From the human T2T-CHM13v2.0 reference genome, Homo sapiens: a stretch of DNA of 64,000 nucleotides. The first letter of the stretch is position 1. Every line of letters starts with the position of its first letter. Shown piece by piece: positions 1 through 47,961 of this stretch. The stretch lies in assembly GCF_009914755.1 (NCBI RefSeq), contig NC_060928.1; one strand, given 5' to 3'. The position numbers were made by a program, and so were the translations under genes. The notes under the pieces are model-generated. The model saw only the letters and a program-made list of their open reading frames with translations. It made no database searches and was not told the origin of the DNA.

Positions 1-252
1 AGCTGGGATTACAGGCGGCCGCCACCACGCCCGGCTAATTTTTTGTATTTTTAGTAGAGACAGGGTTTCACCGTGTTAGCCAGGATGGTCTCGATCTCCT
101 GACCTCATGATCCGCCTGCCTTGGCCTCCCAAAGTGCTGGGATTACAGGCGTGAGCCACCGTGCCCGGCTGCCATTTTGTTTTTTCTATAAACGTTTCCT
201 GTAGTAAATAATCTCATTTTCAATATGCTTTGTTTTCCATGTTCTTATTCTT

Positions 253-783
253 TTTTTTTTCAAGTTTTAACCAAAGCTTGTATATAAGATTACTTTATTC
301 CTGCATCTTCTCAATTGTTTCTTCCTTGTATTTGCCCTTTTCTTTTCCTACTTGGCGAGATTTGGCTTCCTTTTCAAGGATCTTTTTGCAGTCTTTGTCC
401 AGTTTTAGCCTAGTGATAACTACCTTATTGGGGTGAATGCCTACATGGACAGTTGTGCCATTAGCCTTTTCCCACTGCACCTGTTCAATGTAGATGACAT
501 ATTTCTTTCCTGTAAACCTGAACTACTTTGCCAAGTTGCTGACCTTTATAGTGTCCTCGTACAACCTGAACTTCATCATCCTTTTGGATGGGCATGGATC
601 AAACGTCGTACTTCGTACTTCTGTCTCAGCTCTTTGGAAAGAGAGGAAGACAAAATCTTCCTGCGAATGTGGGAAGGTGCACTGAAATGACTTTTGTGGT
701 TCTTGCTTCTGTCAGAAGTCACAAAGGGATTGAACTTCATTTTGGCTGCTCCCACTTCAGTGATGGCTGCAAAAGGAAAGAGC
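253..783 (-). pseudogene. RPL26 processed pseudogene (frameshifted)
   Basis: [14 protein letters not shown]... from ATG 740 and ...[17 protein letters not shown] to stop 295, in different frames. No introns, polyA remnant at 251-260, 17-bp TSD tccatgttctta(t/c)tctt at 236-252 and 784-800. Confidence 0.95.
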
Positions 784-42900: not shown

Positions 42901-45391
42901 GTTTTAATCCTAGCAGTTTTGAAGTCCATGGTGGGTGGATCACTTGGGGCCAGGAGTTTGAGACCAACCTGGGTAACATTAGTGACATCTTGTCTCCAGT
43001 GAAAACAAAAAACAGAGAACGCAAAATAAGCATTCTTTTCAAGCTCCTATGGGACACTCACCAAGATAAACCATATCATGGGCTATGGAACATTCCTTCA
43101 CACATTTAAAGAATAGAAATCACACAAATGACAGGGCACGGTGGCTCACGCCTGTAATCCCAGCACTGCCAAGGCACGCAGATCACCTGAGGTCAGGAGT
43201 TCGAGACCAGCCTGGCCAACATGGAGAAACCTCGTATCTACTAAAAATACAAAAATTAGCTAGGCGTGGTGGTGTGCACCTGTAATCCCAGCTATTTGGG
43301 AGGCTGAGATGGGAGAATCGCTTGAACCCAGTAGGCAGGGGTTGTAGTAAGCCGAGATTGTGCCATTGCACTCCAGCCTGGGCAACAAGAGTGAAACTCT
43401 GTTTCAAAAAAAAAAAAAAAAGAAATCACACAAACTACATTATCAGACTATACAAAATTATAATAGATATTACAGAAAAATATCTGGGAAATCCACAAAA
43501 AATGTGAAAACTAGTACACTTCTAAATACCTCTTGGGTCAAAGAGTGAGTCTCAGGGAAATTAAATATTTTGAGCAAAATAAAAATAAAAATGCAATATT
43601 TCAATATTTGTGTAACATAGCTAAAGCAGTATTTAGAGTGAAATTTATAGAATTAAATTTATAATATATTAGAAAAAAATCTAAAATCAGTAACTTAACC
43701 CTTTACCTTAAGAAACTAGAGAAAAATGGCCGGGCGCGGTGGCTCATGCCTGTAATCTCAGCACTTTGGGAGGCCGAGGCGGGCTGATCACGAGGTCAGG
43801 AAATCGAGACCATCCTGGCTAACACAGTGAAACCCCATCTCTATTAAAAATACAAAAATTCGCCGGGCTTGGTGGTGGGCGCATGTAGTCCCAGCTACTT
43901 GGGAGGCTGAGGCAAGAGAATGGCATGAACCCGGGAGGCGAAGCTTGCAGTGAGCCGAGATCCTGCCACTGCACTCCAGCCTGGGTGACAGAGCGAGACT
44001 CTGTCTCAAAAAAAAAAAAAAGAAAAGAAACTAGAGAAAAAAAGGAGATGGAGAGCTTTTAAATGTAAAGCAAGAAGAATGACAAAAATAAAAATTGAAG
44101 CAGAACTCAATAAAATTGAAAATTGGAAACGAGAGAAAAATCAACAAAACCAAAGCTGATTCTTTGAAAAGATAAAAATGGAGGCAATAAATTGTTAACT
44201 GCCACGAACTGCCCAAGTTAGTATGGGATTTCAAATGCATGCTCTTTCCACTATCTCAGTGCCTTAGTTTGGGTGATGAATAAGGGATGGAACAATTAGG
44301 AAGAAGACTGATTATGTAGGGGAAAAGAATATTATAGTGATTTTTTGGGACATAAGGTTGGTGGTGGAATATTAAATAGTAGCCAGAAACTGGCAAGGGG
44401 AGTGCAGAGTAGGGATGCTGGAAATACATCAGTATATATTTTTCATTTACAAAACCCTTATCACTTACAGAAATGATTCTGTCTTTAAACTATGACTGTT
44501 TTCTTGTCCACAGAAGCCACTGAGTTTATAGATCCTCGAATATATCAGTTGATCCATGTATCTCTAATAACACTTATTTCACCAACGTCATCCTATTTTT
44601 GATGTCTACTAATTATTGTAATTTAACCAGATGTGTAATGTTCTCTGAATTGGTGTAAAATAACTGGCTGGGCGCAGTGGCTCACACCTGGAATCCCAGC
44701 ACATTGGGAGGCTGAGGCGGGTGGATCACTTGAGATCAGAAGTTTGAGACCAGCCTGGCCAACATGGTGAAACCCCGTCTCTACTAAAAATACAAAAATT
44801 GACCGGGCACGGTGACGCGAGTCTGTAATTCCAGCTATTCCAGAGGCTAAGGCGTGAGAGTCGCTTGAATCCGGGAGAGGGAGGCTGCAGTGAGCTGAGA
44901 TTGCACCACTGCACTCCAGCCTGGACAACAGAGTGAGCCTCCATCTCAAAAAAGACAAAAACAAAAAACTTAAATTGAAGCTTTACAATAGCACCTGGAG
45001 CTTGAATTTATCCATTATAACGCCAGCTGACCTTGGGTGCGAGTTCATGACCAAATCTATGTAATGTATTGATTAAATCTCATGCTTATAGAATTCTGCC
45101 TATGCTTTTTTTTTTTTTTTTTTGAGATGATACCCAGGCTGGAGTGCAGTGGCGCGATCTCGGCTCACTGCACCTTCTGCCTCCTGGGTTCAAGTGATTC
45201 TCCTGCCTCAGCCTCCCGAGTAGCTGGGACTACAGGTGCATGCCACCAAGCCTGGCTAATTTTTTGAATTTTTAGTAGAGATGGGGTTTCACTGTGTTAG
45301 CCAGGATGGTCTCAAACTCCTGGCCTCATGATCTGCCTGCCTCAGCCTCCCAAAGTGTTGGGATTACAGGCATGAGACACTGTGCCCGGCC
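39925..45391. mobile_element. Right-arm-only Alus at 39925-40240, 40333-40620, 41883-42203 (with (TG)n linker), 43133-43420, 43728-44030 and 45107-45391, within old L1/MaLR sequence
   Basis: Alu consensus. TSDs such as acaatagttacttct, agaaatcacacaaa, aagaaactagagaaaaa; empty sites in the left arm. Confidence 0.85.
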
Positions 45392-47961
45392 TTAATGTAT
45401 TTCATTACACATTGTAAATATCATAACAATGTATTTCCCAATTTAAAAGGTTAAAAATACATAAGAGTGAATTGTTTTAAAACTATAATTCCAGGCCCTG
45501 ATAAACTTCTGGTTAAATATCAGGATAGACTAAAGACATTTTCAGATACAAAGGTCTCAAAAACTTTATTTCCCATGAACCTTACTAGAAAGCTACTGAA
45601 GGATGTGCTCAAATTAAACAAGAAACCAAGTTCGAAATGGAAAAACATAAAGACAGGTAAAACAATGCAAGAGATGCCAAGAATATCCCCAAGATACCTG
45701 AGCCACTGGCTTAGTGAACAAATGTGCCTGTGTTGCAGATGAGAAGGCTCCTTGAGAGTATTCTGCAAGATGAAAATGGTATAAAGCCAGATGCCTTAAA
45801 ATGAATTCAGAAAACTAGACAACTGCAGGGGACAGTTTGGGAATGAATTAAGGAAAGAACATGGAATACAAAGCATACTGAAGGTCAGTATTAACTACAG
45901 GAAACTGTTATAGAAAAAGCAAAAAGGCAATCACTTGACAATACATGGCTCAGAAATGAATGGTATTGAAATAATCAAAATAAATGTGAGAAAATATTCT
46001 AAAACAAAAATGAGAAATTCTATTAGAAGAGGGCCACAAGGTGAAGGCTGTTCCAAATTCTTGTCTCCCAAAGTGGGACATCATAATACTTCAAACTGAA
46101 AAATCCAGAGGTATTATTGGAATGTGATTTAGTGACTATAAAAGTAAATACCAAAAGAGCTGAGGAGTTCAAAGTGACTGCCTCTAAAAAGCTGGCAAAA
46201 GTGGTTATAAAGCAATAGTTGTAATTCAAATAAATCTTGTGAACAATAACTCAAACATTAAACCTAGATTTTTAAAAATTGTACTTTGGGGCTGGGTGCA
46301 GTGGTTCATGTCTGTAATTCCAGCACTTTGGGAGGCCGGAGTGGGTGGATCACCTGAGGTCAGGAGATCCAGACCAGCCTGGCCAACATGATGAAACCCC
46401 ATCTCTACTAAAAATACAAAAATTAGCTGGGCATGGTGGCAGGCACCTGTAATCCCAGCTACTTTGGGTGGAGAGGGTGCGGTGCTGAGGCTCCAGAACT
46501 GCTTGGACCCAGGAGGCGGAGGTTGCAGTGAGACGAGATAATGCCATTGCACTACAGTGTGGGTGACAGAGCGAGACTCTATGTCAAAAATAAAAAAAAA
46601 ATAAAAAGAGAAAAATGATCTGTATTACACAGGAAGAGATACAGATGTCTTTACCTGCCCATGACATGACTATCTCTACGGAAACTCCAATGGAATCTAA
46701 ACAAGAGCTACTAAAAATGAGTTTAGCCAGCTATAGGCAATAAGATTAATATTCAAAAATTAGTTTTCTGTATACTAGTAATGAACAACTAGAATTGAAA
46801 TAATCAACATAAAAAATTAAATACTTAAGGACAAATCTGACAAAACATGTTAAATAACACGTACACTAAAAACTACAAATTTCAGAGACAATTACATAAA
46901 AATTCATTGAATAGATTCACTGTTATGTCTACTGACATGTTGTCAATTTTCTCCGTATTAATCTAAAAAGATACAACATAATCCCATCAAAAGCTCGTCT
47001 TTTTTGTTGACACAAGTTTTCCAAATGTCACCCATCTGTGATCTATTGAAAGATGTTAATTCCTGAATTAACAGAATAAACCTAAGGAGGAAAAGATGGA
47101 ACTAAGTTAAGATGGATTCTGAGACTAGAGATCAGTTCCCAAAGTGAAGTGAAGGACAGTAGCTGAACAGGACTAGAGGGTACTCTGTCCAGTGGGAACA
47201 GAACAGGTTATCTACCGGTTGTGTATGTACAGTATGTGTGTGTGTGGCAGAGGAGGATGTAAGAATGCCATCTCATTTTCTATAGGACTAAGGCAATACT
47301 AACAAAGGCACACACAATAAAAAATAAAGTAAGTTACTTAGAAATATGGAGGTAAACAGAGGAAAGGTGAAAGTGGCACTGGGCATGGTGGTTCATGCCT
47401 GTAACCCCAGTGCTTTGGGAGGCTAAGGCAGGAGAATTGCTTGAGGCCACAAGTTCAACACCACGCTGGGCAAAATAGAAAAATAAAAACTTTAGTTAAA
47501 AAAAAAAAAAGGCTGAAAGTAGCTACCTGGCTGGGCGTGGTGGCTCACACCTGTAATCCCAGCACTTTGGGAGGCCGAGGCAGGTGAATCACTGGAGGTC
47601 AGGAGTTCGACACCAGCCTGACCAACATGGTGAAACCCCGTCTCTATTAAAAATACAAAAATTAGCTGGGTGTGGTGGTACACACCTGTAATCCCAGCTA
47701 CTTGGGAGGCTGAGGCTGAAGAATAGCTTGAACCTGGGAGACGGAGGTTGCAGTGAGCCGAGATCCTGGCCATTGCACTCCAGCCTGGGCAACGAAAAAA
47801 GGGGAGGGGAGGGGAGAAGAGGAAAAAGAAAAGAAAAGAAAAAGAAAAGAGGCTGTATTTACATAGCAGTAGTCCAAGAGTAATGATGAATGCCTTTAAT
47901 AAAGACTTAATCTTTCTTAAAGGAAAAGTATATAAGAAATACAGAAAAAAATTACTGGGCT

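What the first reader, a model, noticed from the sequence alone, without database searches (positions are those of the whole stretch)
170..45930. ~46-kb decayed palindrome holding a birth-and-death TRIM cluster
Seen: ~20-kb inverted arms around a ~5.5-kb spacer, roughly 85-92% identical by eye. Each arm carries two TRIM relics and a SPRY fragment pointing outward, so the window has seven TRIM-derived units and only TRIM61 is intact. Inference: rapid turnover of a TRIM family in a palindrome, an architecture better known for germline genes on sex chromosomes. The arms could also mediate inversion of the spacer.
Basis: partly seen in the sequence, partly recalled or inferred. Interest (0 to 1): 0.7.

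Follow-up and report, generated by a model that had tools for sequence, protein, structure and literature searches.

The report
Old TRIM61 palindrome still gene-converting
A 75-kb mirror-image duplication on human chromosome 4, likely 30-40 million years old, has arms about 10% diverged, yet the working TRIM61 gene and its dead copy share a 1.1-kb stretch that is 99.7% identical, likely because the arms still copy patches onto each other, a process that could also carry disabling mutations into TRIM61.

Summary
The inverted repeat is real and larger than reported. It runs from -12,856 to 62,123 (arms ~34 and ~36 kb, spacer 5.5 kb), so TRIM61 lies inside the right arm, facing a promoterless copy, TRIM60P14, just left of the window. 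Arms differ by ~9.5%; primate proteins place the duplication after the New World monkey split and before the Old World monkey-ape split. Short patches are nearly identical: 3 differences in 1,135 bp over TRIM61's 5' half, plus matching runs of 335 and 325 columns. A chr2 retrocopy shows a tree-topology switch at the stop codon. Best reading: one old inverted duplication with patchy, recent arm-to-arm gene conversion (~0.85). 'Rapid turnover' is overstated: one relic pair was dead before copying, and the SPRY bits are ~120-bp fragments. An 8-bp frameshift absent from a macaque model sits in both arms, so conversion likely spread a lesion. It fails the >99% definition of sex-chromosome palindromes. 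Inversion is untested. This is a new case of a known process (TRIM49 region, SIGLEC11/16); I found no paper describing it here.

The parts
1..20951 (.). Left arm, the part inside the window; it continues 12.9 kb left of the window to -12,856 (33.8 kb in all) and there holds TRIM60P14 (-4,757..-3,343, +), the arm-mate of TRIM61: 96% aa identical, start codon GTG, stop at codon 204, 2-bp insertion near codon 295. Likely the derived copy
26428..62123 (.). Right arm (35.7 kb); likely the parental copy (keeps the TRIM61 promoter and the FAM218A CpG island)
20952..26427 (.). Spacer, 5.5 kb: old repeats, the NACA3P retrocopy (22,913-23,702), and 23,838-25,588 homologous to the upstream region of paralog LOC100420386. 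An Alu is truncated at the left junction (20,951)
48246..49661 (-). TRIM61 coding exon, 471 aa, RING-B-box-(coiled coil)-PRY-SPRY; only intact gene
48954..50088 (-). Conversion tract 1 (mate outside the window at -5,184..-4,050): splice acceptor, 5' UTR, codons 1-236; 3 differences in 1,135 bp
48249..48699 (-). Conversion tract 2 (SPRY): 6 differences in 452 columns, ending at the stop codon; 48,700-48,953 between the tracts differs at 19 of 254
53835..59494 (-). TRIM61 promoter and 5' exons (57,190-57,316; 56,347-56,484), right arm only; lost from the left arm at an Alu-Alu junction
17988..19651 (-). Relic B, left (LOC391710), with an arm-specific Alu at 18,655-18,961
27741..29088 (+). Relic B, right (LOC391711); residual 315-aa B-box/PRY ORF at 27,952-28,899
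27621..27945 (+). Run of 325 matching columns (one 1-bp indel) with left 19,446-19,771; contains the 8-bp RING frameshift shared by both arms
38899..39233 (.). 335-bp perfect run with left 7,046-7,380, just past the FAM218A 3' end; no other close copy found in the genome
8203..9416 (-). Relic A, left (inside FAM218BP)
37009..38153 (+). Relic A, right (inside lncRNA FAM218A, downstream of the window's only CpG island at ~36,500-37,000)
17068..17197 (-). ~120-bp SPRY 3'-end fragment, left
29851..29966 (+). ~120-bp SPRY 3'-end fragment, right
9602..10264 (.). 663-bp LTR-like insertion, left arm only, splitting the left copy of the FAM218A CpG-island region (class recalled, not tested)

Best explanation
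A single inverted duplication of a ~35-kb block, likely in the ancestor of apes and Old World monkeys, copied TRIM61 and two TRIM relics; the arms then diverged ~10%, while short patches were likely re-homogenised by non-crossover gene conversion between the arms, most recently over the 5' half of TRIM61. Shown: arm extent, divergence, near-identical tracts, tree-topology switch, lesions, promoter loss in the left arm. Inferred: (i) the right arm is the parent; (ii) break repair in the germ line uses the opposite arm as template where identity stayed high (TRIM61 coding DNA, held by purifying selection), which reinforces itself; (iii) net flow in tract 1 was mostly TRIM61 to pseudogene; (iv) conversion also spread an 8-bp frameshift between the relic-B copies; (v) reverse tracts would put start-loss or nonsense alleles into TRIM61, and a crossover in tract 1 would invert ~54 kb and truncate it.
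For: Background 1,715 of 18,113 columns (9.5%) vs 3 of 1,135 in tract 1 (binomial P ~1e-41). The tract includes 427 bp of non-coding intron and UTR with no difference, so protein selection cannot explain it. Runs of 447, 427, 335 and 325 columns exceed the longest run in all 2,000 permutations (max 169). The chr2 processed retrocopy (spliced 5' exons, polyA, target-site duplication) groups with TRIM61 in the 3' UTR (27 vs 5 sites) but lies outside (TRIM61, P14) in tract 1 (30 vs 2; Fisher P 1.5e-10). Six amino-acid changes are shared-derived in TRIM61 and P14 against retrocopy plus monkey/tarsier outgroups (7 rows, one a gap artefact). No third close genomic copy was found. Dating: relic B-right groups with siamang, baboon and macaque to the exclusion of B-left (UFBoot 98), with New World monkeys outside (UFBoot 89). 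The macaque model keeps the residues that both human arms delete. Direction: no missense difference in codons 2-203, and 5' UTR distance to the retrocopy is 4.0%, like TRIM61's 4.6% and unlike P14's 11.7%.
Against: Only one human haplotype was examined; no primate genomic sequence was available, and monkey models were assigned to arms by sequence alone. The direction test fails if the 5' region has been homogenised continuously. Two of the three differences in tract 1 are inactivating (start loss, Q204 stop), expected at P ~0.003 under neutral mutation (post hoc), and Val at codon 1 also appears in the retrocopy and in degenerate orangutan and macaque models; simple one-way conversion does not explain this well. 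The 8-bp deletion sits between short direct repeats (GACC, read from the sequence and the monkey residues), so recurrence is not excluded.
Confidence: 0.85

Rival explanations
1. Selection-filtered two-way conversion: the arms exchange in both directions, but selection keeps TRIM61 intact and keeps TRIM60P14 untranslatable (a RING-B-box-coiled-coil fragment could be dominant-negative if read-through transcription reaches its intact splice acceptor), so only inactivating sites stay different.
For: 2 of 3 differences in tract 1 are inactivating (P ~0.003, post hoc). Val1 recurs in the retrocopy and in degenerate orangutan and pig-tailed macaque models, while colobus, capuchin, tarsier and a chimpanzee model have Met1. 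The P14 acceptor is identical to TRIM61's.
Against: P14 lacks the promoter; no expression data. The codon-1 region of the retrocopy is a cluster of changes. The stop lies 3 bp from a shared-derived change (G203R), which suggests it is younger than that conversion. The monkey models could not be placed on an arm.
Confidence: 0.15
2. No conversion: both TRIM61 copies stayed functional under purifying selection until P14 died very recently.
For: High identity is concentrated on the coding exon and ends at the stop codon.
Against: Intron, 5' UTR and synonymous sites are equally homogenised. Near-perfect runs also occur in non-coding DNA and in a dead relic. Shared-derived changes after the retrocopy arose need transfer between copies. 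Codons 237-320 differ at 7.5%.
Confidence: 0.04
3. Assembly or polishing artefact that merged paralogous sequence in this reference.
For: Only one assembly was seen.
Against: Tracts are at most 1.1 kb inside ~10%-diverged flanks, easy for long reads (general knowledge). Graded identities (0.3%, 1.3%, 2%, 7.5%) and retained diagnostic differences are not what a collapse gives.
Confidence: 0.03
4. One reading: a sex-chromosome-like amplicon driving rapid TRIM turnover, with frequent spacer inversion.
For: Arms over 8 kb; TRIM61 is listed among maternal, down-regulated embryo transcripts (passage); a TRIM61 whole-gene duplication is reported at 11.6% in Yoruba.
Against: Arm identity ~90%, not >99%. 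One duplication; relic A dead beforehand. Most decay features (promoter loss, split CpG island, more relic-B lesions) lie on the left arm. No inversion report among 5 papers naming TRIM61 and inversion (listing, plus passages of 3).
Confidence: 0.1

Closest known systems
Chr11 TRIM49/51/64 reservoir (Han, Lou and Sawyer 2011, PMC3228819; passages read)
   Same: TRIM genes multiplied by inverted segmental duplication; conversion proposed between an inverted pair (A1/A2, 100% identical in human, 96-98% in apes).
   Different: Those duplications are young, with many intact genes and whole-gene homogenisation. Here there is one ~10%-diverged duplication, one live gene and patchy tracts. The paper has 0 hits for 'TRIM60' or 'chromosome 4'.
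SIGLEC11/SIGLEC16(P) (Hayakawa et al. 2017, PMC5701461; abstract read)
   Same: Neighbouring gene and pseudogene repeatedly homogenised over their 5' part in primates, with the rest diverged.
   Different: There the pseudogene converted the gene and the partner is a polymorphic paired receptor. Here the partner lacks its promoter, net flow looks gene-to-pseudogene, and function and cross-species pattern are untested.
Primate X/Y palindromes (Jackson et al. 2021, PMC8327919; passages read)
   Same: Arms over 8 kb around a kb-scale spacer; arm-to-arm conversion; likely germ-line genes; at least 25 million years old.
   Different: Autosomal; ~90% rather than >99% identity; conversion only in patches; one arm has lost the gene; spacer inversion not shown.
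Mammalian APELA-TMEM192 TRIM60/61/75 cluster (bat TRIM paper, PMC10145180; passages read)
   Same: Same locus; lineage-specific expansion already described in bats.
   Different: The passages seen do not mention the inverted duplication, its date, the conversion tracts or a separate 'B' lineage (its Fig. S1 was not seen).

Membership tests
X/Y-type ampliconic palindrome (Jackson 2021) | Inverted arms over 8 kb | tested here: met
   33.8 and 35.7 kb
X/Y-type ampliconic palindrome (Jackson 2021) | Arm-to-arm identity over 99% | tested here: not met
   ~90.5% ungapped; definition
X/Y-type ampliconic palindrome (Jackson 2021) | Testis-biased protein-coding gene family in the arms | not testable with these tools
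   No expression tool; literature lists TRIM61 as a maternal transcript and TRIM60 as testis-specific (reference title); the left copy is dead
X/Y-type ampliconic palindrome (Jackson 2021) | Recurrent spacer inversion | not testable with these tools
   No primate assemblies or pangenome; the inversion catalogue paper was not held
Inverted segmental duplication (over 1 kb, 90% or more; definition recalled) | Length and identity | tested here: met
   21.4 kb aligned, 90.5-91.3% ungapped identity, borderline
Interlocus gene-conversion pair (SIGLEC11/16 type) | Tract far more similar than its flanks, including non-coding sites | tested here: met
   3 of 1,135 vs 9.5%; 427 bp of non-coding DNA identical
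Interlocus gene-conversion pair (SIGLEC11/16 type) | Tree topology changes at the tract edge | tested here: met
   30:2 vs 5:27 informative sites, P 1.5e-10
Interlocus gene-conversion pair (SIGLEC11/16 type) | Paralogues cluster by species across primates | tested here: inconclusive
   Only unplaced predicted proteins were available
Birth-and-death gene family | Old paralogous lineages with lineage-specific loss and gain | tested here: met
   B lineage intact in tamarin (2 full-length models plus a partial one on one contig) and other placentals, dead in four human cluster copies
Birth-and-death gene family | Copies evolve independently (no concerted evolution) | tested here: not met
   Conversion tracts between arm-mates
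Class IV TRIM (RBCC-PRY/SPRY), for TRIM61 | RING, B-box, PRY and SPRY domains in one ORF | tested here: met
   All above Pfam cut-offs; full-length orthologues from tarsier to rhino. Marin 2012 treats TRIM61 as lacking the C-terminal domain; Sardiello 2008 lists PRY-SPRY. Coiled coil not tested separately

The most novel reading that the evidence does not exclude
An autosomal palindrome in which selection edits gene conversion: the arms trade sequence across TRIM61, yet a start-loss that may date from the catarrhine ancestor is kept in the left copy because a translated truncated copy would be harmful; the same exchange spreads gene-killing lesions (the relic-B frameshift) and today produces segregating TRIM61 null alleles or a ~54-kb inversion that truncates an oocyte-expressed E3 ligase.
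Probability: 0.15. Interest if true: 0.68.

Novelty: new member of a known kind. Interest (0 to 1): 0.43.

Why it matters
It is a compact natural series of conversion tracts of different ages (0.3%, 1.3%, ~2%, ~9%) between ~10%-diverged arms, with an in-genome outgroup (the retrocopy), so it suggests that conversion can persist far below amplicon identity and can spread lesions. In practice, short-read variant calls and RNA counts in TRIM61's 5' exon (start-loss, Q204 stop) may be paralogue artefacts or real converted alleles. TRIM60P14 is a TRIM61 copy despite its name. A reported FARSB-TRIM61 'fusion' is probably the retrocopy inside FARSB.

Tried and rejected
(1) Dispersed repeats as the cause of the anti-diagonal: rejected; it persists after masking. 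(2) Relic B dead before duplication: first suggested by shared deletions near codons 393/407. These sum to an in-frame 27 bp, consistent with the shorter 460-aa intact orthologues, so the only shared lesion is the 8-bp one inside a converted tract; its status at duplication is unknown. (3) A human-specific regain of TRIM61's start codon: considered, rejected as the simplest reading because colobus, capuchin, tarsier and a chimpanzee model have Met1; squirrel monkey and marmoset models start at codon 7. (4) Unnamed record P0003 (98%): a mosaic of TRIM61, P14 and retrocopy states, set aside as probably chimeric. (5) The first relic-B tree had out-of-frame stretches in B-left and was redone. (6) The Alu tree did not pair most shared Alus; sharing was judged from colinear blocks: 6 of 22 left and 6 of 20 right, from hand-picked lists. 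(7) The second Alu-derived exon in the retrocopy (88%) could not be assigned to one Alu. (8) The LINE-1 identity of the spacer's left end is recalled; Pfam gave no hit. (9) Literature: 'TRIM61 + gene conversion' gave 1 paper, which does not describe it; 'TRIM61 + inversion' 5 papers; 'TRIM60P14/FAM218A/FAM218BP/C4orf39/RNF35' 42 papers, 40 listed, none on structure by title; broader searches listed 25 of 2,625 and 25 of 531, none on this locus. Vollger 2023 supplements: 1 of 2 held files searchable, no hit, and gene-level tables apparently not among them. Akbari 2022: 12 of 18 files searched, no hit. An inversion catalogue and a mouse Rnf33/Rnf35 paper were not held. These unseen tables could already list this locus.
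Full report
1. Observation. A self-BLAST of the window, after dropping hits lying mostly in high-copy positions, leaves a colinear anti-diagonal from 170<->45,929 to 20,951<->26,428 with a 5.5-kb spacer (the unfiltered output was cut). In-window arms differ at 1,103 of 12,466 ungapped columns, and about two thirds of each arm aligns. Three shuffles gave inverted matches of at most 26 bp. tblastn with TRIM61 finds relic A (8,203-9,416 - and 37,009-38,153 +), relic B (17,988-19,651 - and 27,741-29,088 +), two ~120-bp SPRY-end fragments and TRIM61. TRIM61 is a 471-aa RING/B-box/PRY/SPRY ORF with full-length orthologues across placentals.

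2. True extent. A genome search showed TRIM60P14, just left of the window, is 94-96% identical to TRIM61 in protein against 64% for TRIM60. With 130 kb of flanks the anti-diagonal continues to -12,856<->62,123 (negative numbers lie left of the window): ~75 kb, with TRIM61 and TRIM60P14 as a facing pair. The left arm lacks right-arm 53,835-59,494, which holds TRIM61's promoter and two 5' exons. The promoter is ancestral (70% to the TRIM60 promoter), nothing unique from it appears in the 40 kb to the left, and the junction is two adjacent Alus. The left copy of the FAM218A CpG-island region is split by a 663-bp insertion. The spacer's right part matches the upstream region of an older paralogue, while its left end abuts a truncated Alu. 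I infer that the right arm is parental.

3. Age. Arms differ at 1,715 of 18,113 columns outside the TRIM61 block (9.5%; JC 10.1%; 23 blocks, five short blocks left out), above the 5.5% human-macaque value for X palindromes. Only 6 of 22 left and 6 of 20 right Alus are shared, and none of the CpG-richest Alu clade is clearly shared (one ambiguous). Proteins of the relic-B lineage give a direct bracket: outside the converted part, human B-right groups with siamang, baboon and macaque (UFBoot 98), B-left is their sister (89), and tamarin and squirrel monkey lie outside (low-identity windows of predicted models masked; four sequences left out). Shared-derived sites with B-right vs B-left were 9:0, 5:0 and 4:1. 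So the duplication falls between the platyrrhine split and the Old World monkey-ape split, about 30-40 million years ago (dates recalled). Arm assignment rests on sequence alone.

4. Conversion. TRIM61 and P14 differ at 3 of 1,135 bp over 50,088-48,954 (0.26%, 95% CI 0.05-0.77%), 19 of 254 over codons ~237-320, 6 of 452 over SPRY, and 41 of 303 in the 3' UTR. Tract 1 includes 427 identical non-coding bases. Its divergence is below human-chimpanzee levels (0.87% on X; P 0.009 at 0.9% and 0.0006 at 1.2%), so it is probably human-specific. Two more runs lie within the window: 335 bp past FAM218A and 325 columns at the start of relic B; all exceed every one of 2,000 permutations, and no third close copy was found. 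A chr2 processed retrocopy carries TRIM61's spliced 5' exons, an Alu-derived exon closer to the right arm (128 of 133 vs 115 of 129), a polyA tail and a target-site duplication. It sides with TRIM61 in the 3' UTR (27 vs 5 sites) but is the outgroup in tract 1 (30 vs 2; P 1.5e-10) and in the rest of the coding exon (P 1e-5). The TRIM61 line shows purifying selection since then (5 nonsynonymous: 8 synonymous, start codon excluded, vs 32:3 on the retrocopy; polarisation by TRIM60 biases both towards N). The absence of missense differences in codons 2-203 and the 4.0% 5' UTR distance to the retrocopy favour TRIM61 as net donor, unless homogenisation has been continuous.

5. The relics. The TRIM lineages in the cluster are 35-47% apart, except TRIM61/TRIM60 at 23% and a few within-lineage pairs. 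Relic A shares 27 lesions between arms (of 33 and 35), so it was dead when copied. Relic B is a fourth placental lineage, intact (about 460 aa) in tamarin, rhino, horse, cats, elephants and bats, with all four copies in the human cluster broken. Its one shared lesion, an 8-bp RING frameshift, lies inside the 325-column run, and a macaque model retains those residues. The lesion therefore likely arose after the duplication and was copied across; recurrence by slippage is not excluded.

6. Mechanism. Shown: the architecture, lesions, tracts and topology switch. Inferred: germ-line break repair templated from the opposite arm, favoured where identity stayed high; reverse tracts would inactivate TRIM61; a crossover in tract 1 would invert ~54 kb and join TRIM61's promoter to P14's stop. 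Jackson et al. state that intrachromatid recombination between arms inverts the spacer, but nothing here tests it. Unexplained: two of three differences in tract 1 are inactivating (P ~0.003, post hoc), and Val1 recurs in the retrocopy and in degenerate orangutan and macaque models while intact or other models have Met1. This motivates the selection-filtered rival (0.15).

7. What is known. Cluster expansion in bats (passages); positive selection on TRIM60 and TRIM75 (passages); inverted TRIM duplications with conversion on chr11 (passages); SIGLEC11/16 conversion (abstract); X-palindrome definition (passages); a TRIM61 whole-gene duplication at 11.6% in Yoruba with tag variants at hg19 165.83-165.92 Mb in the supplement, although the main table gives a different position; TRIM61 among maternal embryo transcripts (passage); an imprinted DMR reported at its promoter (passage); a BRCA1 ovarian-risk signal at 4q32.3 (passages). 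My searches found no description of this palindrome or its tracts, but catalogue tables of conversion and inversion were not visible, and subscription papers are missing.

8. Verdict. A real, larger-than-reported, catarrhine-age autosomal inverted duplication with patchy recent conversion. It is not a member of the X/Y amplicon class, though it works like one locally. New member of a known kind; interest 0.43.

Noticed in passing
G000:C2:223,130,695-223,133,184 (L044): The TRIM61 retrocopy lies on the same strand between two exons (223,133,805-860 and 223,127,917-8,067) of a phenylalanyl-tRNA synthetase beta gene, presumably FARSB. It likely explains the reported interchromosomal 'FARSB->TRIM61' chimera (PMC4136775, passage).
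   Followed up: partly
L035/L036: 70,042-71,009; 75,347-76,314; 81,613-82,576 (+); L033: -14,824..-13,837 (-); window 55,028-56,055: LTR-like elements of 964-988 bp, 93-96% alike except the intronic one (72-79%); the pair at 75.3 and 81.6 kb bounds a ~7.2-kb stretch that I recall as the known HML-2 provirus at 4q32.3. Observed only.
   Followed up: no
G000:C24 (8.07, 23.7-24.4, 25.8-26.0 Mb), C7, C8, C13: Old TRIM60/61-like fragments occur elsewhere, including triplicated identical-scoring copies on contig C24, probably in Y amplicons.
   Followed up: no
window 49,137; 34,639-34,759; 34,109-34,431: The annotated short TRIM61 isoform (209 aa) splices out of the coding exon into an Alu in the arm-specific middle region and lacks PRY/SPRY; a colobus model has the same form.
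   Followed up: partly
window 36,686-37,159: The 157-aa FAM218A ORF starts in the CpG island, overlaps relic A and has no Pfam hit.
   Followed up: partly
L035 ~66,550-67,425: An unannotated TRIM relic (coiled coil to SPRY) just beyond the right arm; by a recalled coordinate conversion the BRCA1-modifier SNP rs4691139 falls in or near it.
   Followed up: no
window 22,913-23,702: NACA3P retrocopy with polyA and a short target-site duplication splits an older repeat in the spacer; it keeps a 215-aa ORF.
   Followed up: no
57,071-57,482 vs 111,284-111,716; 33,858-35,076 vs 108,945-109,669: Older inverted homologies (68-72%) link the TRIM61 and TRIM60 promoter regions, an earlier layer of inverted duplication in the cluster.
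   Followed up: no
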